Below are positions 29,269-40,008 of a stretch of 64,000 nucleotides of DNA, one piece after another. This stretch comes from Gemmatimonadales bacterium (lineage in GTDB: Bacteria > Gemmatimonadota > Gemmatimonadetes > Gemmatimonadales > GWC2-71-9). Positions within the stretch are counted from its first letter, which is position 1, and every line of letters begins with the position of its first letter. The position numbers and the translations under genes were made by a program. A model generated the notes under the pieces. That model worked only from the letters and a program-made list of their open reading frames with translations, was not told where the DNA came from and did no database searches. The stretch spans positions 4,708 to 68,707 of the forward strand of contig JBOHSN010000006.1 of assembly GCA_050733215.1 (NCBI GenBank), in the 5' to 3' direction.

Positions 29269-29718
29269 TCACGGGTTGACGGTGATCGTGCCAACCATGT
29301 TGGGATGGATGTCGCAGTGATACCCGTACGCACCCGGAGCGGACAGCGTGATCGAATACGTCGCGTTTCCGCCGAGGGAGCCGGACGGCGTGAAGTCGCC
29401 GGCATTGTCGGGCGCGATGTTGTGGGCAGTCGCCGTTCCGGCTACGTAGTCGCCGCCCGTGATGTCGCCGTTGACCCAGCGAATCGCGACCGTGGGGTTC
29501 CCGCCCAGGCTCACGACCTTGGGGTTGGGGCTGAAGGCCGTCGTCGTCTGGGTCGATGCGCCCTCGACGATGCCGATGTCGGTGGTGGTATTCCCCGGCG
29601 GCGGCTGAGGGTTGTTGGGGTTCGGACCGGCGCCGTCGTTGCCGCCGCAGGCTGCGGCGAGCAGCGCCGCGACCAGAACGGCCCGGCTGCCAGCGCGTGA
29701 CGATACGAGAATGGACAT
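29269..29718 (-). CDS. Cupredoxin (type-1 copper, plastocyanin/pseudoazurin-like) lipoprotein
   Basis: Lipobox LLAAACG. The C-terminal ligand set is YHCDIHPNM plus an upstream His (TAHNIAPD). The ATG at 29718 lies within ORF 29269..29883. Confidence 0.75.
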   Translation of the reverse strand: MSILVSSRAGSRAVLVAALLAAACGGNDGAGPNPNNPQPPPGNTTTDIGIVEGASTQTTTAFSPNPKVVSLGGNPTVAIRWVNGDITGGDYVAGTATAHNIAPDNAGDFTPSGSLGGNATYSITLSAPGAYGYHCDIHPNMVGTITVNP

Positions 29719-29889
29719 AGGGGACCCTCGGAACCTCGGGAGAGCGGGACGCAGCGGGACAACCGTCGCCGCGGGGCGAGCCCGTTCATCAGGGGGGCAC
29801 GCATCGCGCCGTGGCGCGGCCGGGCGAGATCCCCTCATTAGTACGACGTTTCGGGCTTCAACGTCCGCACAAGCAACCGGCAACCCGTC

Positions 29890-31263
29890 TCAGAACCGAT
29901 AGCTGATCCAGCTCAGGAAATATCGGACGTCGGCGCCCGGAGGCGTATCGCGGAGGTAGGGGCCCACCGCGCAATGGGTGAGCGTGAGCTGGTAGACGAC
30001 ATTCGGGCTCGGCGTCCAGTCCACCTCGAGCGCAAGCTGCCGCCCGACGGAGCGCGCCCGGCTCGGCCCCCCCGGCCGCTGGGGATTCACGGCGATGCCG
30101 TAGAGCCCGTCGCGCCGGCTGGTCCGCCAGAACAGCGTAAGGCCGCCAACGACCGACAGCCGGGAGCTGACGAAGGCACGAACCGACGGCTGGAGATCGA
30201 TCGAGTTGGCGGGGCCGACGAGGCCCGAGAGGCCGGAGTAGGCGGTGTTGGGGAACAGCGGATTGAAGGTGCCGAGGTCGGCGTCGTCCGGGTCGCGGTC
30301 GCCGCTCGTGACGTCTATCCGCAGGCCCAGCCGGGGGCGGAGCGGCACGCGACGGAGGCGCACGCCGTTGTCGGCCGCCGCATCCCAGGCCCGGATCCGG
30401 CCCGTGCCGAAGCGGCCGAACTGGCCATTGGCCTCGAGGTTGTAGTCCCACGCACCGCGCGCCCCGTTCGCCCGCACGCCCACAGTGTGGCGGAGCTCGT
30501 CCGCGGTGCCCTGGTCGAAGCGCGCGCCGCGCCGATCGAGGCCGATGTAATACGCCGTCAGCGTTCCACCCAGCCCGAGCATATCGCGCCGGATCCACGA
30601 TGCACCCCAGAGGAGACGGGTCGAATCGGCCGAATCGTCGAAGACGCCCCGTTCGACGAGCACCGGGCGCAGTACCCAGAGGGTGCCCCTCGACCGCGAG
30701 GGTCCGAGCAGAACCCGGAGCCCGTCGAAGGTCTGCCGTACGTTCACCATCTCGCGCGCGGACACCAGCCGGGACGAACCGACGTCCAGCTCCTGCCGCC
30801 CGATCCGCACGGCGATCAGGCGATCACTCCCCAGCGACAGTTCACCGAAGGCCTGGTGGAGGTCGAGTCCGTTCTCGTCGAAGGCGCGGGGGCCGCCCGT
30901 CCGGCCGGACGCGAGCGCAGCCTGAAGCTGGACGAACACGCGAAGCCGCTGGCCGACGTGCAGGTCGGCGTGGACCAGATAGCGATGGAGGAGATAGCCG
31001 CCGGCGTCGGGAGGATCGCCGCCAAAGAGCGGGTTGCGGAACTGCTCGTACCGAAGCCGGGTCTCACCGCCAAGGCTTGCCCAGATGCGCCCCGCGCCGT
31101 CGAGCGGCAGATACTTGAGGCGGTCGAGCCGGCCGGTATGGAGGCGCGGATCGCGGAGCGCGCTCCAGTCCTCTTCGTACCTCAGCGCCTGGAATACCGG
31201 CCTCGCGGCGGGCGTCGTATCCTGCCCGGCGGCCGGGGCCGCGGGGAGCATGGCGGCCAGCAC
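29890..31263 (-). CDS. Alginate-export (AlgE-like) family outer-membrane porin
   Basis: 457 aa, beta-barrel pattern, C-terminal ...FLSWISYRF. An RYEEDWS...LKY...RLRYE N-terminal region typical of the family. The N-terminus is uncertain (see findings). Confidence 0.7.
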   Translation of the reverse strand: MLAAMLPAAPAAGQDTTPAARPVFQALRYEEDWSALRDPRLHTGRLDRLKYLPLDGAGRIWASLGGETRLRYEQFRNPLFGGDPPDAGGYLLHRYLVHADLHVGQRLRVFVQLQAALASGRTGGPRAFDENGLDLHQAFGELSLGSDRLIAVRIGRQELDVGSSRLVSAREMVNVRQTFDGLRVLLGPSRSRGTLWVLRPVLVERGVFDDSADSTRLLWGASWIRRDMLGLGGTLTAYYIGLDRRGARFDQGTADELRHTVGVRANGARGAWDYNLEANGQFGRFGTGRIRAWDAAADNGVRLRRVPLRPRLGLRIDVTSGDRDPDDADLGTFNPLFPNTAYSGLSGLVGPANSIDLQPSVRAFVSSRLSVVGGLTLFWRTSRRDGLYGIAVNPQRPGGPSRARSVGRQLALEVDWTPSPNVVYQLTLTHCAVGPYLRDTPPGADVRYFLSWISYRF

Positions 31264-31424: not shown

Positions 31425-31790
31425 TCAGGCGGCCTCACGCCGCACCCGAGGCGTGAGATGCGGGCCGCCCGCCAGCTCGCGTCCGAGGAAGTAGTTCAGC
31501 ACGGTCCGGATGGCCATGATGGCCGCGAGCTTGCCCAGATCGTCCCAGGTCGGCGCGAGGGCGGTCCGGATGATGTCGGAGGCCAGCGCCAACTCGAGGG
31601 CGAGCGCGAGCCACTCGCCCAGGCGGCGCCGGACCGCGTCGCGGTCGGCGCCGCGGCCGAGCAGGTCAGCGATGGAATGCCGGGCAACGCGAGCCAGCGC
31701 TTCGGCCACCGCGAAGGCGACCACGAGTCCGGTCGCCAAGTCGACGGCCATGGCGAGCCACCCAAGTACCGTTCCGACGATCGCGAGCAT
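31425..31790 (-). CDS. DUF1622 membrane protein
   Basis: 121 aa with two to three TM segments and a pattern (...ELALASDIIRT...AAIMAIRTVLNYFL) resembling DUF1622. Confidence 0.6.
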   Translation of the reverse strand: MLAIVGTVLGWLAMAVDLATGLVVAFAVAEALARVARHSIADLLGRGADRDAVRRRLGEWLALALELALASDIIRTALAPTWDDLGKLAAIMAIRTVLNYFLGRELAGGPHLTPRVRREAA

Positions 31791-31814: not shown

Positions 31815-32456
31815 TCAGCCGCTGGTGGCGAAGCCGGGGTAAAGCGTCATGCCGCCATCTACGTAAAGGCTGACCCCGTTGACGTAGTCGGACTCGTCGG
31901 ACGCCATCCATACGACCGCCCGGCAGGGGATGACCTCGTGCACCGAGCTCACGCACACGATCTTGCCGGCCGCGCAGGACACCTCCGGCCGCACGCCGCG
32001 CCGCTTGAATTCCCGTACCGCCTCACGGGCGCAAAGAAACTGGCCGGTCAGGTTGACGCCGATGACGAGGCTCCACTGCTCGAGAGTCATCTGGTCCACC
32101 GGCGCATCCTGCTGCAGGCCGGCGTTGTTGACCATGACGTCGATCGTGCCGAGCTCGTCGAGCATGCGGCGGAACATGGCCTGCACCTGGTCCTCGCGTG
32201 ACACGTCGGCCTGGTGGGCGTAGGCCTGGACGCCACCCGCCCGTATGTGATCGACAACCTCTGCGGCCGCCTCCTCGCCGCGGACGTAGTTCACGACAAC
32301 GTCCGCCCCGGCCTCGCCCAGGGCGAGCGCGACCGCCTTGCCGATTCCGGAGTTTGCTCCGGTGACCAGGGCCTTCTGTCCCTTCAATATTTGGCGGACC
32401 TTGCAGGTGGGCATGACGACATCGGGCAGGGCGTCGTCGCGTACGATGGTTGCCAT
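31815..32456 (-). CDS. SDR-family oxidoreductase (glucose 1-dehydrogenase-like) carrying an internal in-frame deletion of the YxxxK region; possibly non-functional
   Basis: TGANSGIGKA, NNAG and SSVHEVIP are present, but the sequence then jumps to ...CRAVVWMASDESDYVNG...DGGMTLYPGF. It is 213 aa versus about 260 for the family. Confidence 0.7.
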   Translation of the reverse strand: MATIVRDDALPDVVMPTCKVRQILKGQKALVTGANSGIGKAVALALGEAGADVVVNYVRGEEAAAEVVDHIRAGGVQAYAHQADVSREDQVQAMFRRMLDELGTIDVMVNNAGLQQDAPVDQMTLEQWSLVIGVNLTGQFLCAREAVREFKRRGVRPEVSCAAGKIVCVSSVHEVIPCRAVVWMASDESDYVNGVSLYVDGGMTLYPGFATSG

Positions 32457-32581: not shown

Positions 32582-33166
32582 TCAGATGGCGGCGCGGAGT
32601 CCGAGGTCGCGGGCGGTGGCGGCGAGGCGCTTCCAGAGGAGCCTGCGCCCGCGGTGCAGCCGCGACCGCACCGTGCCCACCGGACACCCGATCGTCTCCG
32701 CGATCTGTTCGTAGGAGAGATCGTCCACGAAGTAGAGCACTGCGACCGTGCGGTACTCGAGGGGAAGCGACGCAAGCGCCGCCTGCACCGCCTGGAGGTC
32801 CATCGTGCCGAGGACGGCAGTGGCCGCGTCCGACCCGTCGGCGGCCCAGCGGGCGTCGGCCGCGGTGCGGTCCCCGCTCTCGCCGTCCTCCGCGACCAGC
32901 GGCACCGTGATTCCGCGCCGCCGCTCGGCGCGACAGCGGGTGAGAAACACGTTGACCACGATGCGCTGGAACCAGGCCCGGAAGTTGGTGCCCGGCTCGA
33001 AACTCTCGAAGCTGCGCCAGGCGAGCAGCGACGCCTCCTGCACGATGTCTTCCGCGTCCGCCGTGTTGCGCGCGAGGTGGTACGCCGCGCGGTATGCCGG
33101 CTCGAGCACCGGCTGGAGCAGCCGCTCGAAGGTGCTGGTTCGGGTTTCCTCAGCGGGGGGCGTCAT
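32582..33166 (-). CDS. ECF-type sigma-70 factor
   Basis: Last 194 aa of ORF 32582..33922. Region 2 DAEDIVQEASLLAWRSF...FRAWFQRIVVN and region 4 LPLEYRTVAVLYFVDDLSYEQIAETIGCPVGTVRSRLHRGR. The ATG at 33166 overlaps the STAS stop (ATGA). Confidence 0.85.
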   Translation of the reverse strand: MTPPAEETRTSTFERLLQPVLEPAYRAAYHLARNTADAEDIVQEASLLAWRSFESFEPGTNFRAWFQRIVVNVFLTRCRAERRRGITVPLVAEDGESGDRTAADARWAADGSDAATAVLGTMDLQAVQAALASLPLEYRTVAVLYFVDDLSYEQIAETIGCPVGTVRSRLHRGRRLLWKRLAATARDLGLRAAI

Positions 33167-33429
33167 GCGAGCTCCTTGCTCAGCAACTCCCGGATGAGCG
33201 GGGTGCAGTCCACGATCTCGATACGGTCCTGCGGCAGATGGCGAAGCAGCTCCAGCCCGGCGGCGTCCAGGTATACCACGTCGCGGAAGTCCAGTTGGAT
33301 CCGGGCGCCCTCGTCGAGCACCCGGCGCAGCTCCTGGCCCAGCACGGGCAGCGTGGTCTGGGTGATGACCCCCTCGACTTTGAGGCGGATCAGCTCGGGC
33401 TCGGTCGTGACGTTCGTGAGTCTCAGCAT
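33163..33429 (-). CDS. STAS-domain protein (anti-sigma-factor-antagonist fold) lacking the phosphorylatable serine
   Basis: 88 aa. LDFRDVVYLDAAGLELL aligns with the SpoIIAA/RsbV motif D(S/T)(S/T)GL, but with Ala-Ala. Confidence 0.7.
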   Translation of the reverse strand: MLRLTNVTTEPELIRLKVEGVITQTTLPVLGQELRRVLDEGARIQLDFRDVVYLDAAGLELLRHLPQDRIEIVDCTPLIRELLSKELA

Positions 33430-33459: not shown

Positions 33460-33475
33460 AGCACCCCGCGTGCCA
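33460..33475 (-). promoter_or_regulatory. Candidate sigma54 (-24/-12) promoter for the STAS-ECF sigma operon
   Basis: The minus strand reads TTGGCACGCGGGGTGCT, against the consensus YTGGCACGrNNNTTGCW. GG and GC have canonical spacing. The GC is 32 nt upstream of the ATG at 33429 and the site is about 150 nt downstream of the stop of a sigma54-activator gene. Confidence 0.55.
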
Positions 33476-33627
33476 AGCGGACGACCCGCCGGGTACAGCG
33501 TGACAACATGTTGAAGGGATTTGGCTTAGGTGACGTATCCGAGCGACGGCCGCTCGCCAAACGCACTCGGGGTCCCAAAAAGTTGGGAATCTCCCACGTC
33601 GATCTCCGGGGGAATTTGGGAGGCGAC

Positions 33628-36600
33628 CTAGCCCGGCCGACGGACGCCCAGCTTCTTCATTCGCGCTTCGAGGGTCGTGGGCTTGAGACCCAGAAGCACC
33701 GCTGCACCTCTGGGTCCGCTCACCCGCCACCCGGTCTGTTCCAGTACCTCCGCGATGTGTCTCCGCTCCATCTCCTCCAGGGTCGGCTGCCCGGCTCCCC
33801 GGCTGCTCGGAGCCGCTCCACTGTCGGAAGGCAGCAGCCCGTCCAGCTCCAGCGCGGAACCACGGCTCAGAATGACCGATCGCTCGATGACGTTGGCCAG
33901 CTCGCGGATGTTGCCGGGCCACGGGTAAGCGGTCAGCCCCTCAAGCACGCCCCGGGGCACCGCCTCGATGCGCTTTCCGAGCTTCGCGGCGTACTTGAGG
34001 ACGAAGTACCGGACCAGCTCCGCGATGTCTTCGGCCCGCTCCCGTAGCGCCGGGTTCCGGATGGGGAACACGTTGAGCCGGTAGAAGAGGTCGGCCCGGA
34101 AGCGGCCGTCGCGGACCCGTGCCTCGAGGTCGCGATGCGTTGCCGCGATCACCCGCACATCCACGTTGATCGGGCGAAGGCCGCCCACCCGCTCGATCTC
34201 ACCTTCCTGGAGGACCCGGAGCAGCTTCACCTGTGAGTCGAGCGGCAGATCCCCGATCTCGTCGAGAAAGAGCGTGCCCCCGTCGGCGACTTCGAACCGT
34301 CCGATTCGCCGGCTCACGGCTCCAGTGAAGGCGCCCTTCTCGTGGCCGAACAGCTCGCTCTCGACCAGCCCCGGGGAGATCGCGCCGCAATTGACCGTGA
34401 TGAGCGCGCGGTCGCGCCGGGGGCTCAGCTTGTGAATCGCCCGGGCGAGCAACTCCTTCCCGGTGCCGGTTTCCCCGGTGATCAGGACGGTGGTGTCGCC
34501 CGGCGCCACCTGCTCGACCTCCGTGAGCACCCGGCGAAGCGCCGGGCTTCGCCCGACGATCTCCTCGAATCCGTGCTCGGTCTCGATCTGCTCCTGGAGG
34601 TAGACGTTCTCGGTCTCCAGCCGGTCCTTGAGCCGCCGCACCTCGGCGAGCGCGGCCCGAAGCGACTCTTCCGCCCGCTTGCTGTCGTCGATGTCGGTTG
34701 CCACGCCGAACCAGCGGGTGGTCGCTTCCTCCGGGCTGCGCATCGGGATCGCGCGGGCGCGGAACCAGCGGTGCTGGCCGTCCGCCCTCCGAAGCCGATA
34801 CTCGGTCTCGAACGCCTCGCCGGTCCGCACCGATTGCTCCCAGGCCGCGGTCGTGCGCTCGCGGTCGCCGGTATGGACGGCGGCAAGCCAGCCCTGGCCG
34901 AGGCAGCGCGCGAGCGGGAGCCCCGTGTATTCCGAGAACCGGCGGCTCACGTAGTCGCATCCACCGTCGGTGCCGGCGGTGAACAGGACTTCGGGCACCG
35001 TCTCCGCCATGGTGCTGTAGCGAAGCTGGCTCTCGCGCAGCGCGTCGCCAGTGCGCTTGCGCTCCAACTCCGCGCCGGCGCGGGCGGCGAAGATACGCAG
35101 GATCGCGAGGTCGTCCGGGGTCGGTGTGATCGGGGCGGTGTGGAGCACCGCGAGATGGCCGAGCAGGTCGCCGGTGGCTCCGCGAAGGGGGATGCCCAGA
35201 TAACTCTCCGCACCGAGGGTCTGGAGCTCGGTATCGGCCGGGAAGAGCGCCTGGATGTCGCGGGTATGCAGGCACATGTCGCCCCCGAGCACCTGCTGGC
35301 AGGGTGTTCCACTGACCGCATACTCCACGTTCTCCGCGAAGTCCGACCCGCTCCAGAACGCGAGCGTGCGGACGCGGGTGCGCTCGGCGTCGGTGCATTC
35401 CGCCGCGAACGCGTAGCGGGCCTGGAGCGCGTCGGCCAGATGCTGGACCAGGGGGCGGAAGAAGTCACCCGCCGTCACGGCGGCCGTGCCCTCCGCCAAG
35501 GCCCGGAGCTTCGCCTCGGCGCGCGTACGCTCGGTCACTTCCTGGCGCGTCCGCTCGTACAGGCGCGCGTTTTCGATGGCGATGGCGGCCTGAGCGGAGA
35601 TCAGCTGCATCACCCGGACGCGCTCGGGAGTGAAGGCGTGTGGGGTGAGCCGGTTCTCGACGTAGAGCGTGCCGACGAGGGTGCCCTGATTGAGGACCGC
35701 GGTGCAGAGTACGGAGCGGGGCCGCTCGCGCACGATGTACGGATCCTCCGCGCAGCGCTCGTCCACCGGCGCGTCGGCCACCACGACGTTCTCGCGGGTC
35801 CGGCGCACGTAGTGGATCAGACTGACCGGCAGATCGACACTCTCGGCCAGCGGCACGGTCGGTCCGCCGAGCACCTCGATCCGATCGTGCGAGCCGGTGA
35901 CGCGCACGACGGGCCCGGCTTCCCCCTCGAGCACGAGGGAGCCCCGCTCGGCACCGGCGTTCTCGAGCGCGACGCGCATGAGTCGGTCCAGTAGCCGCTC
36001 GAGATCGATCTCCTGGCCGATCGCCTGGGCGGCCTTGATCGCGGCCGCTGCATCGATCGAAATGTCGAGCGTCTCGCTGGACACGAGCACCGACGAGCCG
36101 CTCGGCCGCGCAGATCCATCCGGGGCCAACCCCTGCCGCAGCAGTTCGGGATACCGGCGGTCCAGGTCCGCCACCTTGGCGGTTGCGCCCCACTGCGCGT
36201 ACCCGAAGCGGGCCTCGGCCAGGAACACCGCCGCGACCTTGGGCTGTCCGCGCTGGAGCCAGAACCGGCCGTACAGCTCGTTGATGAGCGCCCGGTGTCG
36301 AGGCGATTCCTGAGCGGCGACCGCCTCGAGGGCGGCGTCATATAGCGTGACCGCGTCCCCCGGTCGCTGCCGCACCCGCGCGATCTCCGCCGAAGCGAGG
36401 AGGTGGAGATGCCCGAAGTTCTCGGGAGCGCTCTCCGCCCAGCGGGCGAGCCGCGCCTCGAGCCGATCAAGCTTGGTCTCCGCGGGCGGCCGCTCGCCGG
36501 CCGGGGCGTCCGGCAGCCAAGCGCAGATGGCGAGCACGTGGCGGAAGGTGAACATCGCGGGCCAGATCGAGCCGACGAACACGTCGGCGGCCGCCTCTTC

Positions 36601-39600
36601 GGTCGCTGCGTAGCGCCGAGCCGCCTCGACCTGCCCGAAGGTGTGGAGGAGCTCGAGCTTCACCGTGGCATGCAGGGCGCGGAAGATACCGCTGCCCCCG
36701 AGCAGCTTGAGGTAACGCTCCTCGTCGAAATCCGAGCCCGACAGACTGATCGGCGTCTCTGTGCGGCCACGCAGCGCCTCGCTCCACTGCAGCATGACGC
36801 GCTGCATCTCGACGTAGGTGTGGAGCTGTAGCCGGGCGAGCAGGTCCGCCGTGGGTCCGTGACGATCGGCGAACGTCTCGAGGTCGCGCTCGATCTGCAT
36901 CCCGTACCACGCCTGCTGGAACTGTGCGTAGCCCGCCACCGCGAGGTTCCCGGACTCGAAAGCCGCGCGGACCGCCTCCCGGGCGTGGACGATGCAGTTC
37001 GCGAACGGCTGCCGCCACGCATTGACCAACGCCGCAAACCGGTGATGCACGATCGCGCGAAGTCGCAGATCCGCGAAGCGCTCATTGACCGCCAGCGCGA
37101 GCTCGCCGAACTCCGCGCCACGCTCGTACTCGCCGAACACGGAGCCCACGGTCATCGCGTGGTGCAGGAAGCCGAAGGCCGACGGCTCGCTGACGCCGTG
37201 CTCGAGCGACAGACGCACGAGGCGGGCTGCGACGAGGTCGCCGAGGCGGGTCTGTCCGCTGATGTACGCCGGCGCCCAAGCCGCCTGGAGCAGCCGCATC
37301 GCCTGACGCATGCCGGGATCCTGCACCGGCGGGAGCTCCACCAGGCTCGCGATGGGCCGCGTCCCGATCGCCCGCCGAATCGCATCGAGCTCGGCGGCGA
37401 GGTCCGGTTCCCAGGCAGCCGGATCGGCGCTCACGGCGACGTCGAGCCGGCGGAGCCCGTCGAGGCCGGCCGCAATCGCGTCCGCGTAGCGCGACATTGT
37501 CTCGTACTCGACCATCAGCAGGGCGTAGACGTCGGCGACATCGAGCGGTGACCGGCACCGTTCGAGCAGCGCGAGGAAGCTCCTTTCCGCCTCGTCCAGG
37601 CGGGCGCAGAGATACTCGGCTTCCGCCCGCTCGAGGTGCAGCGCGAAGGCGAGCTCGTAATGCTCGGACCAGGCGGTGTCGGGAAGCAGCTCCGTTCCGA
37701 CCGTGAAATGGCTCAGGGCGCTCGGGTACGCGGCCGATGCTTTGGCCTTGCGCCCGGCGTCAAGGTTCAGCTGGGCCAGACGCCGGCGCTCGCCGGCATC
37801 GGCGATGAGCGAACGACCGTAGTTCAGGTGGTTGGCCACCTCGAACAGGCTGTCCGCGCGGGCGTCGCCGCCGCGCTCGAGCAGCAACCGCCCGACGGTG
37901 AGATGCGCCTGCCGCCGGCCCTCCTCGGGAATCAGCGCGTACGCGGCCTGCTGCACCCGGTCGTGGAGGAAGCGGTAGCCGATCTCGGCGGGTTCGATGC
38001 CGGTGGAGAGGTCCGGCGCGAATCCGTACGACTTGTCCAGCGAAAGCACGAGTCCTTGCTCGACCGCCTCCCACAGATCCGCGGCGGCCTCGGCCGGCTC
38101 CGCCTGGCTGATGATGGCAAGCGTCCGGAGATCGAACCGGTCACCCACGCACGCCGCGAGGCGAAGCGCCCGCTGGGTGCGGGAACCGAGGCGGGAGATC
38201 TTGGCCGCCATCAACGCGAGGACGTTGTCGGCGAGCTCCACCCGAGCCGTCCGGTCCAGATCGACCCGCCATCCGCCCGTGGCCTCGTCGAACGTGATGA
38301 GCCCGTCGGCGTGGAGCGACTGTAGCAGCTGCTTGACGAAGAAAGGATTGCCGCCCGTCTTGGTGAGAACGAGGTCCGCGGCAGCGGATGCGTGTCCCGC
38401 GTCGGTCCGAAGCGCGTCCGCGACCAGCTCCCGCAGCTGGCCGGCGTCGAGCGGCGGGAGCGCGATCTCCTCGATCCGCACCCGCGCGGCGAGTTCGCCG
38501 ACGGTCAGCCGCAGGGGATGGGTGGGGGACACCTCGTTGTCACGATACGCGCCGATAACGAGGAGCCCACGGATGTCCGGGTCGGTCAGCAGGAAGGGCA
38601 GCAGGGCGAGCGTCGCCGCGTCCGCCCACTGGAGGTCGTCCAGGAACAGAACCAGGGGGTGGTCGGCACGAGCGAACGCGGCCACGAACTTCTGGAAGAC
38701 CAGATTGAACCGGTTCTGCGCCTCGGTCGGCCCGAGCACCGGGGCCGGGGGCTGGGGGCCGAGGATGCGCTCGAGCTCGGGGATGACGTCGATCACGACC
38801 TGGGCATTGGCGCCGAGCGCGGCGCCCAGCCGCGCCGCCCAGGTGCGGACCTCCTCGTCGCTTGCCGCGAGCGTCTGGCGCACCAGCGCCTGGAATGCCT
38901 GGGCGAGCGCCCGATAGGGAACGTCCCGCGCCAGCTGGTCGAACTTCCCCGCGATCAGGTGGGCCTGTCCCCGGGTCATCGACTTGTAGACCTCCTGGAT
39001 GAGCGAGGTCTTCCCGATGCCGGAGTAACCGGTCACCAGCACGAGCTCGGTCGCGCCGGCCGCGACCCGCTCAAATGCCGCCCGCACGGCGGCGCCTTCC
39101 GCGGCCCGCCCGTACAGCCGCTGAGGAACCACGAACCGGGTCGAGCTGTCCTCGGTGCCCAGCGGGTGCTCGCCCACCGTTCCCGATGCCTCCAGCTCGG
39201 CAGCGAACCGCGCCAGATCCGCGCGCAGCCCCTGCGCGCTCTGGTAACGCGCCTCGGGCATCTTCTCGAGCAGGCGCGTGACCGCCCGGCAGACGACCTC
39301 GGGCAGCTCGGGCCGCCGGAGCGCCGGCGAGTCCGGCAGCCGTGCGATATGGCCGTGGATCAGCTCCAGCGGATCCGACGAATCGAAGGGCAGCCGCCCG
39401 GTCAGCATCTCGTACAGGGTCACGCCCAGCGAGTACAGATCCGTGTGGTAATCCACATCCCGGTTCATCCGCCCGGTCTGTTCGGGCGACATGTAGGCGA
39501 TCGTGCCCTCGAGCAGATGCGGGTGGCTCGGCGGCTGCGGCTCGCTCGTCAGGCGGGAGGCGATGCCGAAGTCGGTCAGCGTGACGCGCGAGGTGGCGGC

Positions 39601-40008
39601 GTCAACCAGGATGTTGTTGGGATTGACGTCTTTGTGGATGATGCCGCGACGGTGGAGCTCGCCGAGGACGGTCGCGAGCTGCACGCCGATGCTCAGCACC
39701 TGGCGGAGGGGAAGCGGGCTGCTCGCGATCAGCGTCTTGAGCGGCACTCCGCCGGCGTCCTCGAGCACGAGGGCGACGCGGTCGCGATGCGTCACCAGCT
39801 CCAGCGGCCGGGCCACGCCGGCAATCGAGAGGGACGACAGGATCTGGTACTCACGCCGCAACGCGGTCAACTGCGCGGGCGCGGGAAACTCATCCGCCGG
39901 GGTCTTGATCACGGCCGGGAGGCCGTCGCGCCGGCGGGTTGCCCGGAAGACGACGCGGCGGCGACCCCGGTAGATCTCCTGCTGGATGTCGTAGCCGGGA
40001 ATGCTCAT
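33628..40008 (-). CDS. 2126-aa multidomain regulator: Ser/Thr protein kinase - AAA_16/STAND NTPase - helical repeats - GAF - GAF - PAS - sigma54-interaction AAA+ - Fis-type HTH
   Basis: Kinase aa 6-268 (39205-39993): PAVIK, IIHKDVNPNNIL, DFG, SPE. AAA_16 aa 296-500: GYSGIGKTS, LVLFLDDLQWAD. GAF about 1315-1485 and 1505-1650. PAS about 1660-1780. Sigma54 AAA+ aa 1814-2055 (33844-34569): GETGTGKE, GAFTGA, TLFLDEIG. HTH aa 2078-2120. Confidence 0.9.
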   Translation of the reverse strand: MSIPGYDIQQEIYRGRRRVVFRATRRRDGLPAVIKTPADEFPAPAQLTALRREYQILSSLSIAGVARPLELVTHRDRVALVLEDAGGVPLKTLIASSPLPLRQVLSIGVQLATVLGELHRRGIIHKDVNPNNILVDAATSRVTLTDFGIASRLTSEPQPPSHPHLLEGTIAYMSPEQTGRMNRDVDYHTDLYSLGVTLYEMLTGRLPFDSSDPLELIHGHIARLPDSPALRRPELPEVVCRAVTRLLEKMPEARYQSAQGLRADLARFAAELEASGTVGEHPLGTEDSSTRFVVPQRLYGRAAEGAAVRAAFERVAAGATELVLVTGYSGIGKTSLIQEVYKSMTRGQAHLIAGKFDQLARDVPYRALAQAFQALVRQTLAASDEEVRTWAARLGAALGANAQVVIDVIPELERILGPQPPAPVLGPTEAQNRFNLVFQKFVAAFARADHPLVLFLDDLQWADAATLALLPFLLTDPDIRGLLVIGAYRDNEVSPTHPLRLTVGELAARVRIEEIALPPLDAGQLRELVADALRTDAGHASAAADLVLTKTGGNPFFVKQLLQSLHADGLITFDEATGGWRVDLDRTARVELADNVLALMAAKISRLGSRTQRALRLAACVGDRFDLRTLAIISQAEPAEAAADLWEAVEQGLVLSLDKSYGFAPDLSTGIEPAEIGYRFLHDRVQQAAYALIPEEGRRQAHLTVGRLLLERGGDARADSLFEVANHLNYGRSLIADAGERRRLAQLNLDAGRKAKASAAYPSALSHFTVGTELLPDTAWSEHYELAFALHLERAEAEYLCARLDEAERSFLALLERCRSPLDVADVYALLMVEYETMSRYADAIAAGLDGLRRLDVAVSADPAAWEPDLAAELDAIRRAIGTRPIASLVELPPVQDPGMRQAMRLLQAAWAPAYISGQTRLGDLVAARLVRLSLEHGVSEPSAFGFLHHAMTVGSVFGEYERGAEFGELALAVNERFADLRLRAIVHHRFAALVNAWRQPFANCIVHAREAVRAAFESGNLAVAGYAQFQQAWYGMQIERDLETFADRHGPTADLLARLQLHTYVEMQRVMLQWSEALRGRTETPISLSGSDFDEERYLKLLGGSGIFRALHATVKLELLHTFGQVEAARRYAATEEAAADVFVGSIWPAMFTFRHVLAICAWLPDAPAGERPPAETKLDRLEARLARWAESAPENFGHLHLLASAEIARVRQRPGDAVTLYDAALEAVAAQESPRHRALINELYGRFWLQRGQPKVAAVFLAEARFGYAQWGATAKVADLDRRYPELLRQGLAPDGSARPSGSSVLVSSETLDISIDAAAAIKAAQAIGQEIDLERLLDRLMRVALENAGAERGSLVLEGEAGPVVRVTGSHDRIEVLGGPTVPLAESVDLPVSLIHYVRRTRENVVVADAPVDERCAEDPYIVRERPRSVLCTAVLNQGTLVGTLYVENRLTPHAFTPERVRVMQLISAQAAIAIENARLYERTRQEVTERTRAEAKLRALAEGTAAVTAGDFFRPLVQHLADALQARYAFAAECTDAERTRVRTLAFWSGSDFAENVEYAVSGTPCQQVLGGDMCLHTRDIQALFPADTELQTLGAESYLGIPLRGATGDLLGHLAVLHTAPITPTPDDLAILRIFAARAGAELERKRTGDALRESQLRYSTMAETVPEVLFTAGTDGGCDYVSRRFSEYTGLPLARCLGQGWLAAVHTGDRERTTAAWEQSVRTGEAFETEYRLRRADGQHRWFRARAIPMRSPEEATTRWFGVATDIDDSKRAEESLRAALAEVRRLKDRLETENVYLQEQIETEHGFEEIVGRSPALRRVLTEVEQVAPGDTTVLITGETGTGKELLARAIHKLSPRRDRALITVNCGAISPGLVESELFGHEKGAFTGAVSRRIGRFEVADGGTLFLDEIGDLPLDSQVKLLRVLQEGEIERVGGLRPINVDVRVIAATHRDLEARVRDGRFRADLFYRLNVFPIRNPALRERAEDIAELVRYFVLKYAAKLGKRIEAVPRGVLEGLTAYPWPGNIRELANVIERSVILSRGSALELDGLLPSDSGAAPSSRGAGQPTLEEMERRHIAEVLEQTGWRVSGPRGAAVLLGLKPTTLEARMKKLGVRRPG

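What the first reader, a model, noticed from the sequence alone, without database searches (positions are those of the whole stretch)
32582..33429. Non-phosphorylatable STAS protein translationally coupled to an ECF sigma factor, with no anti-sigma or RsbW-type kinase nearby but a Ser/Thr kinase upstream
The STAS ORF has LDAAGLE where SpoIIAA/RsbV carry the phospho-serine (D-S-S/T-G-L). Its TGA overlaps the ECF sigma ATG (ATGA at 33163-33166). No RsbW-like kinase and no membrane anti-sigma factor follows the sigma gene; the next gene is a decayed SDR. Established knowledge: some ECF groups are genomically linked to Ser/Thr kinases, and sigma phosphorylation has been reported for Vibrio EcfP/PknT. 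Inference: this sigma factor may be controlled by the neighbouring kinase and/or by direct STAS binding. That would be an atypical form of partner switching.
Basis: partly seen in the sequence, partly recalled or inferred. Interest (0 to 1): 0.6.

Follow-up and report, generated by a model that had tools for sequence, protein, structure and literature searches.

The report
Sigma-54-driven STAS plus ECF sigma operon
A small anti-sigma-antagonist-like (STAS) protein that cannot be phosphorylated and an ECF sigma factor are made together from a sigma-54 promoter that the giant activator gene next door most likely switches on, so this sigma factor is controlled mainly by transcription (as HrpL is in plant pathogens), while the job of the STAS protein, which belongs to a large unstudied family, is still open.

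Summary
An 88-aa STAS gene (33163-33429, minus strand) has Ala where RsbV/SpoIIAA carry the phospho-serine. Its TGA overlaps the ATG of a 194-aa ECF sigma gene. No RsbW-type kinase or anti-sigma gene lies in the locus, here or in six close relatives.

The interpretation missed the main point. The upstream "kinase" is the N-terminus of a 2126-aa sigma-54 enhancer-binding protein. A sigma-54 promoter, TGGCAC-N5-GTGCT, lies 30 nt upstream of the STAS start. A GG-N10-GC promoter precedes STAS in 22 of 26 related loci, including loci whose activators have no kinase domain. The unit is therefore a sigma-54 to ECF cascade, as in HrpR/S-hrpL.

EcfP-like activation by phosphorylation is unlikely, because the sigma factor keeps its DAED motif and the kinase-like domain has an atypical catalytic loop.

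The STAS protein folds like RsbV (pLDDT 91). It belongs to a family of about 1,470 clusters in which Arg, Gly or Ala replace the serine. About a third of the loci have STAS without any ECF gene, so STAS may act on the activator rather than on sigma.

The ECF's sister lineages use small ZAS anti-sigma factors. An orphan ZAS gene exists elsewhere in this genome.

Verdict: a new variant of a known kind.

The parts
33628..40008 (-). Giant 2126-aa sigma-54 enhancer-binding protein. Domain order: kinase-like domain, AAA_16/STAND, 2 x GAF, PAS, Sigma54_activat (with GAFTGA), HTH_8.
   Evidence: Pfam and NCBIfam hits. GAFTGA and the Walker motifs are read directly in the translation. The atypical HKDxNPNN loop is conserved in 4 homologues.
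33573..33622 (-). Array of TCCCAA / TTGGGA half-sites, including the perfect dyad TCCCAA-CTTT-TTGGGA at 33588..33573. This is the likely upstream activator sequence for the HTH_8 domain. It lies 100-145 nt upstream of the -24 element.
   Evidence: Sequence. The same half-sites recur upstream of STAS in L012 and L013, while more distant loci carry a different dyad, CGATATTTCG. Part of the array also scores as a terminator-like hairpin, so a dual or alternative role is possible.
33504..33515 (-). IHF-like site TTCAACATGTTG (core TCAA-N4-TTG), located between the half-site array and the promoter.
   Evidence: Read. ATCAA-N4-TTR cores sit at the same relative position in L012, L013 and L031. This was judged by eye only, with no statistics.
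33460..33475 (-). Sigma-54 (-24/-12) promoter TGGCACGCGGGGTGCT. Its 3' end lies 30 nt upstream of the STAS ATG.
   Evidence: this is one of only 2 matches (<=1 mismatch) to TGGCAC-N5-TTGCW in 64 kb, with 0.89 expected; a GG-N10-GC element lies 43-70 nt upstream of STAS in 22 of 26 related loci. rpoN is present in the genome.
33163..33429 (-). 88-aa mini-STAS protein with an RsbV/SpoIIAA-like fold. It has Ala at the phospho-acceptor position and lacks the C-terminal helix of canonical antagonists.
33172..33177 (-). AAGGAG Shine-Dalgarno sequence for the ECF gene. It lies inside the STAS codons for the Lys-Glu of the SKELA tail.
   Evidence: Sequence. The C-terminal (S/N)(K/R)ELA is conserved in the close family.
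32582..33166 (-). 194-aa ECF sigma factor with regions 2 and 4 and an intact DAED motif. Its ATG overlaps the STAS TGA.
   Evidence: The nearest NCBIfam models are SigH/SigE/SigW-type, all below their cut-offs. The tree places it among ZAS-paired ECFs.
31815..32453 (-). SDR (glucose-1-dehydrogenase-like) with an in-frame internal deletion that removes the catalytic segment. Probably a decaying passenger gene of the operon.
   Evidence: The gene is intact in L119, an 81-aa remnant in L118, a C-terminal fragment in G005, and intact but relocated in G012.
31425..31790 (-). DUF1622 small membrane protein, co-directional with the operon and syntenic in close relatives.
   Evidence: 87 bits. Synteny.
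29890..31263 (-). Alginate_exp-type outer-membrane porin, co-directional and syntenic.
   Evidence: 253 bits. Synteny.
29722..29875 (-). Conserved leader upstream of the cupredoxin gene. It carries a two-block motif TGTGC-N18-CGTC (29871..29842) whose spacer varies in sequence but not in length, followed by a conserved GC-rich hairpin. It is a candidate ECF-dependent promoter plus structured 5' UTR.
   Evidence: 75% column identity among W, G005 and G012; the motif is unique in the genome; the hairpin shows 2-3 compensatory pairs, though only 3 sequences were available. No Rfam match.
29269..29721 (-). Amicyanin-like cupredoxin lipoprotein with C-x2-H-x2-M copper ligands. It is the recurrent cargo of this kind of cassette.
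   Evidence: Copper-bind, 23.7 bits. Cupredoxin genes follow STAS directly in L037, L041 and L068, and follow the ECF directly in G012.

Best explanation
The stretch is a two-gene operon transcribed by sigma-54 RNA polymerase.

Proposed chain of events:
1. The adjacent 2126-aa enhancer-binding protein senses a signal through its kinase-like/STAND/GAF/PAS half.
2. It binds the TCCCAA/TTGGGA dyads about 100-145 nt upstream.
3. It uses its AAA+ module to open the TGGCAC-N5-GTGCT promoter.
4. This yields one mRNA from which the mini-STAS protein and, by translational coupling (ATGA overlap plus an internal AAGGAG), the ECF sigma factor are made in fixed proportion.

The ECF sigma factor keeps its core-binding DAED motif and has no anti-sigma gene in cis. 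Its activity is therefore set mainly by how much of it is transcribed, as for HrpL. It then most likely redirects RNA polymerase to genes for a periplasmic electron-transfer set (cupredoxin, porin, DUF1622) lying downstream.

The STAS protein is an RsbV-like fold that is not regulated by serine phosphorylation. It is a conserved accessory of this class of sigma-54 operons. My preferred sub-hypothesis is that it modulates the circuit by protein binding. That could be feedback on the activator (PspA/HrpV-style) or titration of the sigma factor or of a trans-encoded ZAS anti-sigma factor.

What is shown:
- gene content
- the promoter and its conservation
- gene linkage across relatives
- the STAS fold
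- loss of the phospho-site

What is inferred:
- which activator fires the promoter
- the ECF regulon
- every statement about what STAS binds
For: Activator and promoter:
- The giant protein carries Sigma54_activat (253 bits), AAA_lid_14 and HTH_8, and contains GAFTGA.
- rpoN is present in the genome.
- The promoter match is one of 2 in 64 kb, and it sits 30 nt before the STAS ATG.
- A GG-N10-GC element lies 43-70 nt upstream of STAS in 22 of 26 loci. Only 28 such matches exist in the 490 kb scanned.
- The dyad half-sites are conserved in G005 and G012 and differ in more distant clades.

Gene linkage:
- An activator gene lies next to STAS in about 26 of 31 loci, and an ECF gene lies directly after STAS in about 21 of 31. 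These loci include Rokubacteria and Verrucomicrobia.
- The activators next to STAS are 51-79% identical to the giant's C-terminal part, mostly above the genome's own paralogues at 38-54%.
- The ATGA overlap and the internal Shine-Dalgarno sequence are present.

Sigma factor:
- DAED is intact, whereas phosphorylation-activated ECF43 lacks it (PMC8999054).
- HrpL is a published precedent for an ECF sigma factor transcribed from a sigma-54 promoter (PMC8999054).

STAS protein:
- The AF2 model has pLDDT 91, with TM 0.78 to RsbV and SpoIIAA.
- The phospho-site is Ser/Thr in only about 15% of 262 members.
Against: - Promoter use, the transcription start and co-transcription are all inferred.
- The degenerate promoter pattern used for the 22-of-26 count was written after the sites had been seen, and the loci are phylogenetically related.
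- Two loci (L033, L034) show the promoter and STAS-ECF but no activator gene within the 1.5 kb available.
- The dyad region also scores as a terminator-like hairpin.
- The ECF regulon is guessed from synteny and from one conserved two-block motif that occurs only once in the genome.
- A purely transcriptional control may be incomplete. The sigma factor's sister lineages use ZAS anti-sigma factors, and an orphan ZAS gene exists in this genome.
- Nothing here tests what STAS binds.
Confidence: 0.72

Rival explanations
1. STAS acts as a feedback regulator of the activator. Once induced, the mini-STAS protein binds the enhancer-binding protein (its AAA+ or adjacent PAS module) and damps or reinforces its activity. 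This would resemble PspA on PspF, HrpV on HrpS, or FleN on FleQ. The ECF gene would then be cargo of the cassette rather than the partner of STAS. This reading is compatible with the cascade above and concerns only the role of STAS.
For: - STAS is linked to the sigma-54 promoter and activator more consistently than to an ECF gene.
- In L037, L041, L068 and L070 the operon is activator, promoter, STAS, then cupredoxin/GSDH/DoxX. In L016, L066 and L067 STAS sits among genes for secreted proteins. In all these loci STAS is the only cytoplasmic product.
- ECF-less members are scattered over the STAS tree, which needs at least 6 changes of state.
- STAS is coupled to at least 2-3 separate ECF lineages. 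That fits a partner which stays constant, namely the orthologous activator core.
Against: - The library searches found no paper linking a STAS protein to a sigma-54 activator.
- The activators' sensory parts vary widely.
- L033, L034 and L066 show no adjacent activator gene in the DNA available.
- There is no interaction evidence of any kind.
Confidence: 0.3
2. STAS binds the sigma factor directly. STAS would be a stoichiometric partner of the ECF sigma factor, either a STAS-type anti-sigma factor or a chaperone, replacing the missing anti-sigma factor. This would be an atypical partner switch without a kinase.
For: - STAS and the ECF gene are translationally coupled by ATGA overlaps across divergent lineages, as is usual for sigma/anti-sigma pairs.
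- An ECF gene directly follows STAS in about 21 of 31 loci.
- No anti-sigma gene is adjacent in W, G005, G012, L118, L119 or L120.
- The surface around Asp55/Gly58, which RsbV uses to dock on RsbW, is conserved.
I did not verify it.
Against: - STAS persists without any ECF gene in about 9 loci, and there it is translationally coupled to a secreted protein instead (L066/L067).
- STAS is paired with unrelated ECF clades and with degenerate sigma-like proteins that lack DAED (L018, L062, L043).
- To my knowledge no STAS protein is known to bind a sigma factor directly.
- A profile of concatenated STAS+ECF pairs found no fusion among the best 120 of 2545 hits.
Confidence: 0.25
3. A trans-encoded ZAS anti-sigma factor holds the sigma factor. 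The ECF would be sequestered after synthesis by the orphan 86-aa zf-HC2 protein encoded next to uppS on another contig (G000 C15:43214..43474). It would be released by thiol or redox stress, as in the RsrA/RshA systems. STAS might then antagonise that ZAS, or might be unrelated to it.
For: - The orphan ZAS gene scores 42.6 bits against zf-HC2 and has the H-x3-C-x2-C motif.
- It is 47% identical to the ZAS gene that directly follows a STAS-ECF pair in L063.
- In 10 relatives its orthologues sit directly after an ECF gene that is 44-52% identical to the window's ECF. That is closer than this genome's own paralogues at 37-40%.
- G018 has uppS-ECF-ZAS, where G000 and G005 have uppS-ZAS.
- In the tree the window's ECF lies in the same clade as 12 ZAS-paired ECFs.
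- The two nearest paralogues in this genome each have their own ZAS gene downstream, so the orphan has no obvious partner among them.
Against: - G013 keeps the orphan uppS-ZAS arrangement but has no ECF of this clade at all, so the orphan does not depend on the STAS-linked sigma factor.
- G005 has the orphan and also a separate ECF-ZAS pair.
- Presence of the orphan does not track presence of STAS-ECF among 61 relatives.
- The genome is about 91% complete, so a cognate ECF gene could be missing from the assembly.
Confidence: 0.25
4. Control by phosphorylation. The kinase-like N-terminal domain of the giant protein would phosphorylate the sigma factor (EcfP/PknT-style) or the STAS protein to switch the sigma factor on.
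For: - A Pkinase domain (119 bits) with the VAIK lysine, DFG and SPE motifs lies on the neighbouring protein, and it is conserved.
- Several ECF groups are linked to Ser/Thr kinases (PMC8999054).
- In G347 the giant kinase-type gene lies directly after STAS-ECF.
Against: - The sigma factor keeps DAED, so it does not need an added negative charge (PMC8999054).
- The catalytic loop is HKDVNPNN, with the Lys of HRDxKxxN replaced by Asn. The Gly-rich loop is YRGRRRV. Both features are conserved, which suggests a non-canonical kinase or a pseudokinase.
- Homologous STAS-ECF pairs sit behind PAS-only or GAF-only activators with no kinase domain.
- The STAS phospho-acceptor is Ala here and Arg in most of the family.
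Confidence: 0.05

Closest known systems
HrpR/HrpS - sigma-54 - hrpL (ECF32) cascade of Pseudomonas syringae and Erwinia (PMC8999054)
   Same: An ECF sigma factor with no cognate anti-sigma gene is transcribed from a sigma-54 promoter activated by an enhancer-binding protein encoded nearby. Sigma activity follows transcription. In that system small proteins (HrpV, HrpG) modulate the activator.
   Different: - The sigma factor here is not HrpL-like. Its nearest models are SigH/SigE/SigW-type, and it lies in a clade of ZAS-paired ECFs.
- The activator is a single 2126-aa multi-sensor protein rather than a sensor-less pair.
- A STAS gene is co-transcribed ahead of the sigma gene.
- The likely output is a periplasmic cupredoxin/porin set, not a secretion system.
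RsbV-RsbW-SigB and SpoIIAA-SpoIIAB-SigF partner switching
   Same: A single-domain STAS protein with the RsbV/SpoIIAA fold (TM 0.78) is encoded first in an operon that ends in a sigma factor gene.
   Different: - There is no RsbW/SpoIIAB kinase/anti-sigma gene and no PP2C gene in the operon.
- The phospho-serine is replaced (Ala here, Arg in 36% of the family).
- The protein is about 20-25 residues shorter.
- The sigma factor is group 4 (ECF), not group 3.
- The genome has a separate canonical RsbV(DSSG)-RsbW-GAF/PP2C cluster on contig C55.
Non-phosphorylated STAS antagonists such as M. tuberculosis RsfA (own knowledge) and RsfB-UsfX (PDB 8ih8)
   Same: These STAS proteins act by binding alone and are regulated by something other than serine phosphorylation.
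   Different: They still target an RsbW-type anti-sigma factor (UsfX). No such partner is linked here.
PspF-PspA, FleQ-FleN and HrpS-HrpV anti-activator loops (own knowledge)
   Same: A small protein is produced from the sigma-54 regulon and feeds back on its own enhancer-binding protein. It is often the first gene of the induced operon.
   Different: None of those anti-activators has a STAS fold. The interaction is only a hypothesis here.
RsrA-SigR / RshA-SigH type ZAS-regulated ECFs
   Same: The sigma factor's nearest relatives, in this and related genomes, are followed by 80-110-aa soluble H-x3-C-x2-C proteins. One STAS-linked relative also has such a gene (L063).
   Different: No ZAS gene follows the window's ECF or the ECFs of its six closest relatives. 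The only candidate is an orphan gene on another contig.

Membership tests
STAS-domain anti-sigma-factor antagonist (SpoIIAA/RsbV type) | STAS fold (beta-alpha sandwich) | tested here: met
   Pfam STAS_2 at 31.4 bits, above the 29.2 cut-off. AF2 model at pLDDT 91. Foldseek best hits are RsbV 6m36, SpoIIAA 1thn and TM1442, with TMq 0.76-0.79.
STAS-domain anti-sigma-factor antagonist (SpoIIAA/RsbV type) | Phosphorylatable Ser/Thr immediately after the conserved Asp at the N-terminus of helix 2 | tested here: not met
   The residue is Ala56 here. It is Ser/Thr in 38 of 262 family members and Arg in 94.
STAS-domain anti-sigma-factor antagonist (SpoIIAA/RsbV type) | Cognate RsbW/SpoIIAB-type kinase/anti-sigma factor and PP2C phosphatase encoded with it | tested here: not met
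   None is present in the window or in about 30 related loci. The genome's one clear RsbW homologue is on contig C55, with its own DSSG-type RsbV.
ECF (group 4) sigma-70 factor | Regions 2 and 4 only, with a core-binding DAED-type motif in region 2.2 | tested here: met
   Sigma70_r2 at 56.5 bits and Sigma70_r4_2 at 62.3 bits. TIGR02937 at 87.8 bits, above the 42.9 cut-off. DAEDIVQEA is read. The protein is 194 aa.
ECF43 / EcfP-type phosphorylation-activated ECF | DAED motif replaced by Ser/Thr-containing residues, with a Ser/Thr kinase as activator | tested here: not met
   DAED is intact here, and is DADD or DAED in close relatives. The criterion is taken from PMC8999054.
ECF32 (HrpL) family | Sequence membership in the ECF32 group | not testable with these tools
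   The ECF Hub group HMMs are not available. The best NCBIfam hits are SigH_actino, SigE and SigW-type models, all below their cut-offs. Membership is therefore unlikely. The resemblance lies in the wiring only.
Sigma-54-dependent transcription unit | -24 GG and -12 GC elements with canonical spacing, located upstream of the first gene | tested here: met
   TGGCACGCGGGGTGCT at 33475..33460. The element is conserved in 22 of 26 loci.
Sigma-54-dependent transcription unit | rpoN and an enhancer-binding protein with GAFTGA in the genome | tested here: met
   rpoN at C108, 217.7 bits. The giant protein has Sigma54_activat at 253 bits and contains GAFTGA.
Sigma-54-dependent transcription unit | Transcription start at the promoter and dependence on RpoN and the activator | not testable with these tools
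No cultured strain is available.
ZAS-regulated ECF (RsrA/RshA type) | Small H-x3-C-x2-C anti-sigma gene directly downstream of the sigma gene | tested here: not met
   Absent in W, G005, G012, L118, L119 and L120. Present in L063 and next to the sister ECFs. An orphan homologue lies on contig C15.
MlaB (the name JGI gives to homologues) | Encoded with MlaFED, with a fold nearest to MlaB | tested here: not met
   No Mla genes occur in any locus. TMq to MlaB is 0.55-0.58, against 0.78 to RsbV.

The most novel reading that the evidence does not exclude
The roughly 1,470-cluster family of 85-95-aa STAS proteins, which carry Arg, Gly or Ala at the phospho-site, could be a new class of phosphorylation-independent switch proteins dedicated to sigma-54 circuits. 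They would act either as STAS-type anti-activators or co-activators of their cognate enhancer-binding proteins, or as the first STAS proteins that bind an ECF sigma factor directly in place of an anti-sigma factor.
Probability: 0.3. Interest if true: 0.75.

Novelty: new variant of a known kind. Interest (0 to 1): 0.55.

Why it matters
ECF sigma factors are the largest family of alternative sigma factors, and many groups still have no known mode of control. This cassette shows a recurrent design in uncultured soil phyla (Gemmatimonadota, Rokubacteria, Verrucomicrobia). A sigma-54 activator with very large sensory capacity feeds an ECF sigma factor through transcription. A conserved, non-phosphorylatable STAS protein is always made with it.

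If STAS proves to act on the activator or on the sigma factor directly, that would extend partner switching beyond kinase/phosphatase logic. It would also give a function to a family of well over a thousand unannotated small proteins that pipelines currently mislabel as 'MlaB component' or 'anti-anti-sigma factor'.

The analysis also corrects the simple 'anti-sigma-less' label. The sigma factor descends from ZAS-regulated relatives, and an orphan ZAS gene survives in this genome.

Tried and rejected
- Named relatives: the genome-contig scan with the full STAS alignment had no stretch conserved enough to search with. With close sequences it returned only one locus, a Gemmatimonadales MAG.
- ECF group assignment: the ECF Hub HMMs are not available. 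The classification paper mentions neither STAS nor sigma-54 in its main text, and its supplements are not held.
- STAS-ECF fusion (Rosetta-stone test): a profile of nine concatenated STAS+ECF pairs found only stand-alone ECFs among the best 120 of 2545 hits. The fusion reported in an earlier scan note could not be confirmed.
- ECF regulon by motif: TGTGC-N17-ACGTC-N-TA occurs only once in the 3.97-Mb assembly, so no regulon could be defined.
- The cupredoxin leader matches no Rfam family. BLAST did not find it in 150 family genomes beyond the close relatives.
- Literature search for a STAS protein acting on a sigma-54 activator: nothing relevant was found.
- MlaB reading (JGI label): rejected on gene context and fold.
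- EcfP-like sigma phosphorylation: rejected as the main mechanism. DAED is intact, the kinase loop is atypical, and kinase-less activators occur in homologous cassettes.
- STAS:ECF, STAS:activator and ZAS:ECF complex prediction: not possible, because structure prediction folds single chains only.
Full report
**What is there.** All genes discussed lie on the minus strand.
- The 88-aa ORF at 33163..33429 is a real gene. It passes Pfam STAS_2 (31.4 bits against a cut-off of 29.2).
- It has 26 near-full-length homologues at 63-97% identity.
- A profile of 70 members finds 1,468 cluster representatives at E <= 1e-10 in a 1.84-billion-protein library. Almost all are 85-95 aa.
- An AlphaFold2 model built on that alignment is confident (pLDDT 91, pTM 0.82). 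It has the order beta1-beta2-alpha1-beta3-alpha2-beta4-alpha3.
- Its best structural matches are RsbV in complex with RsbW (6m36), SpoIIAA (1thn) and TM1442, at TM 0.76-0.79. MlaB scores 0.55-0.58. The JGI label 'MlaB component' on homologues is therefore misleading.
- The protein is about 20-25 residues shorter than canonical antagonists.

**The phospho-site.** The profile alignment to TM1442 and RsbV places Ala56 at the position of their phospho-serine, the residue directly after the conserved Asp.
- The replacement is a family trait. Among 262 members the position is Arg 94, Gly 40, Ala 31, Thr 21, Ser 17.
- Arg3, Glu19, Gly20 and Asp47 are nearly invariant.
- The genome has a separate canonical module on contig C55: RsbV with DSSG, RsbW, and a GAF-PP2C phosphatase. 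The organism therefore does use phospho-dependent partner switching elsewhere.

**The sigma gene and the coupling.**
- The plus strand reads TCAT at 33163-33166, so the STAS TGA and the ECF ATG overlap as ATGA.
- AAGGAG lies 5 nt upstream of the ECF start, inside the STAS codons for the conserved SKELA tail.
- The 194-aa product has regions 2 and 4. It passes the general ECF model TIGR02937 but no specific NCBIfam model. The nearest are SigH/SigE/SigW-type.
- It keeps DAEDIVQEA in region 2.2.

**The neighbour is a sigma-54 activator.** The 2126-aa protein at 33628..40008 has this domain order: Pkinase, AAA_16, two GAF, PAS, Sigma54_activat (253 bits), AAA_lid_14 and HTH_8. It contains GAFTGA. 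The genome encodes RpoN.

The 198-bp gap between this gene and STAS holds three elements:
- **Promoter.** TGGCACGCGGGGTGCT at 33475..33460 is one of only two matches (<=1 mismatch) to TGGCAC-N5-TTGCW in the whole 64-kb window, with 0.89 expected. It ends 30 nt before the STAS ATG.
- **Half-site array.** TCCCAA/TTGGGA half-sites span 33622..33573, including a perfect dyad, at 100-145 nt upstream of the -24 element.
- **IHF-like core.** TCAA-N4-TTG lies between the array and the promoter.

**Comparative support.**
- Whole-genome searches of relatives and context look-ups gave about 31 loci with a member of this STAS family.
- A GG-N10-GC element of the form GG[CT]A[CT]-N5-[CGT]TGC[TC] lies 43-70 nt upstream of the STAS start in 22 of 26 loci tested. 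Only 28 such matches exist in all 490 kb of those loci on both strands.
- That pattern was written after the sites had been seen, and the loci are related. The a-priori test is.
- The TCCCAA/TTGGGA half-sites recur in G005 and G012. More distant clades carry a different dyad, CGATATTTCG, at the same place. This is what one expects if the sites co-evolve with the HTH domain.
- An activator gene is adjacent in about 26 of 31 loci. It is a giant kinase-STAND type in W, G005, G012, G009, L062, L063, L118, L119 and L120. In G347 the order is permuted to STAS-ECF-giant.
- The activator is a PAS-PAS type in L014/L064/L068 and a GAF type in a Rokubacteria contig, L061.
- The C-terminal parts of these activators are 51-79% identical to the giant's. 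The genome's own other activators are 38-54% identical. They therefore form one orthologous core with variable sensors.

This is the architecture of HrpR/S - sigma-54 - hrpL, the published case of an ECF sigma factor controlled by transcription (PMC8999054).

**Why phosphorylation control is unlikely.**
- ECF43 sigma factors such as EcfP are inactive because they lack DAED. The kinase supplies the missing charge (PMC8999054). Here DAED is intact.
- The kinase-like domain has VAIK-Lys, DFG and SPE motifs. Its Gly-rich loop is YRGRRRV and its catalytic loop is HKDVNPNN, with the Lys of HRDxKxxN replaced by Asn. Both are conserved in four homologues down to 58% identity. From general kinase knowledge this suggests a sensory or scaffolding pseudokinase or a non-canonical enzyme.
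- The same STAS-ECF pair works with activators that have no kinase domain at all.

**What does STAS do?** This is the open part.

*Points for direct STAS-sigma binding:*
- the ATGA coupling in many lineages
- an ECF gene right after STAS in about 21 of 31 loci
- no anti-sigma gene next to the six closest cassettes

*Points against it as the family's general role:*
- About 9 loci have STAS but no ECF gene. The arrangements are activator-STAS-cupredoxin (L037, L041), activator-STAS-cupredoxin/CHRD/GSDH (L068), STAS-DoxX (L070), YceI-STAS-outer-membrane protein (L016, L066/67) and activator-STAS alone (L040).
- In those operons STAS is the only cytoplasmic product.
- ECF-less members are scattered on the STAS tree.
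- The ECFs that follow STAS fall into at least two or three separate lineages.
- Some partners are degenerate sigma-like proteins without DAED or a detectable region 2 (L018, L062, L043).

A constant partner fits this pattern better than a variable sigma factor. The orthologous activator core is one candidate, which would give a PspA/HrpV-style feedback loop. I rate activator feedback at about 0.30, direct sigma binding at about 0.25, and antagonism of a trans-encoded anti-sigma factor within the 0.25 given to the ZAS rival.

**The 'no anti-sigma factor' claim needs a qualification.**
- One STAS-linked relative (L063) has an 81-aa zf-HC2 (ZAS) gene directly after the ECF gene.
- tblastn with that protein found an 86-aa ZAS gene in this genome at C15:43214..43474. 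It is 47% identical, carries HLETCAAC, and scores 42.6 bits against zf-HC2.
- That gene lies 32 nt after uppS, with no sigma gene beside it.
- In ten relatives its orthologues follow an ECF gene that is 44-52% identical to the window's ECF. That is closer than this genome's paralogues on C12 and C38 (37-40%), each of which has its own ZAS gene.
- G018 has uppS-ECF-ZAS, so the orphan state in G000, G005 and G013 arose by loss of the sigma gene.
- In the ECF tree the window's sigma factor sits in a clade (SH-aLRT 83) with 12 ZAS-paired ECFs. The STAS-linked ones, including L063, form a subclade (SH-aLRT 91).

The sigma factor therefore descends from ZAS-regulated stock, and a trans-acting ZAS factor is a live possibility.

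Against a specific pairing:
- G013 keeps the orphan but has no ECF of this clade.
- Presence of the orphan does not track STAS-ECF presence across 61 relatives.

**Likely output.**
- Close relatives share the string STAS-ECF-SDR-DUF1622-Alginate_exp porin-cupredoxin-Fpg-UvrC-like.
- In G012 the cupredoxin gene follows the ECF gene directly.
- In ECF-less cassettes the cupredoxin gene follows STAS directly.
- Upstream of the cupredoxin gene, W, G005 and G012 share a 150-nt leader. It starts with TGTGC-N18-CGTC, whose spacer varies in sequence but not in length, as in a two-block promoter. A conserved hairpin follows.
- This may be the ECF-dependent promoter. The motif is unique in the genome, so this remains a guess.

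**Comparison with earlier notes of this scan.** Other agents reached the same sigma-54 to ECF reading for this and similar cassettes. My analysis was done before I read them, and I re-derived each point. This report adds the following:
- family-wide statistics on the phospho-site
- the structural assignment to the RsbV class
- the ECF-less cassettes, which argue that STAS is tied to the activator
- the multiple ECF lineages paired with STAS
- the ZAS ancestry of the sigma factor and the orphan ZAS gene

**Verdict.**
- The mechanism for the cascade is well supported by sequence and comparison, and untested by experiment.
- The role of STAS is unknown, with three concrete and testable candidates.
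- Novelty: a new variant of a known kind.

Noticed in passing
window 29722-29875 (-); L012:10930-11120; L013:4310-4480: A roughly 150-nt leader upstream of the amicyanin-like cupredoxin gene is 75% conserved among three genomes whose other intergenic DNA does not align. It has a two-block motif TGTGC-N18-CGTC followed by a GC-rich hairpin with a few compensatory changes. There is no Rfam match, and the motif is unique in the genome.
   Followed up: partly
own genome G000 C15:43214-43474 (-), outside the window; L078-L093: An orphan 86-aa ZAS (zf-HC2) gene lies 32 nt after uppS. G018 has uppS-ECF-ZAS, and ten relatives have ECF-ZAS pairs. In G000, G005 and G013 the sigma gene between uppS and the ZAS gene has been lost while the ZAS gene stays intact (84% identity between G000 and G005).
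   Followed up: partly
window 31815-32453 (-); L118:8920-9165; L119:8953-9813; L012:10030-10286; L013:11121-11975: The SDR gene after the ECF gene is decaying independently in several lineages, in frame where it could be read. There is a deletion of about 75 aa here, an 81-aa remnant in L118 and only a C-terminal fragment in G005. The gene is intact in L119, and intact but moved upstream of the giant gene in G012.
   Followed up: partly
own genome G000 C55:4309-6717 (+): A canonical partner-switching cluster with no sigma gene beside it: RsbV-like STAS with DSSG (111 aa), RsbW-like kinase (155 aa) and a GAF-PP2C phosphatase (514 aa).
   Followed up: no
L018:6489-7020 (-), L062:6255-6785, L043 (after STAS): In one STAS clade the downstream 'ECF' is degenerate. 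Region 4 is kept, but region 2 is no longer detected by Pfam and DAED is replaced by AAGA or MAEG. These may be sigma-like proteins with a changed function.
   Followed up: no
window 32582-32600 (-) and ECF C-termini in L012, L013, L014, L064: The STAS-linked ECFs end in Ala-Ala-containing tails (RAAI, RAAG, RAAV, LQAA, LQAAA). This recalls the C-terminal AA degron reported for AntA/ClpXP (PMC8999054). It might make the sigma factor short-lived, so that its activity tracks transcription. Speculative.
   Followed up: no
L014:10223-10621; L064:6913-7269: In the second STAS-linked ECF clade a conserved 118-132-aa protein with no Pfam match always follows the ECF gene. It is a candidate clade-specific sigma regulator.
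   Followed up: partly
L018:1-5600; L062:7290-7775; L059:8086-10900; L068:5885-8077: The cargo downstream of these cassettes is repeatedly periplasmic redox machinery: a XoxF-like PQQ dehydrogenase with cytochrome c and a binding protein, Rieske/cytochrome c/DoxX, and cupredoxin-CHRD-GSDH. This hints that the signal sensed concerns periplasmic oxidation or metal supply.
   Followed up: no
window 33465-33481 and 33584-33596 (-): Both hairpins that the terminator scan reports in the gap overlap regulatory elements, namely the -24/-12 promoter and the dyad array. They could also terminate read-through from the giant gene.
   Followed up: no
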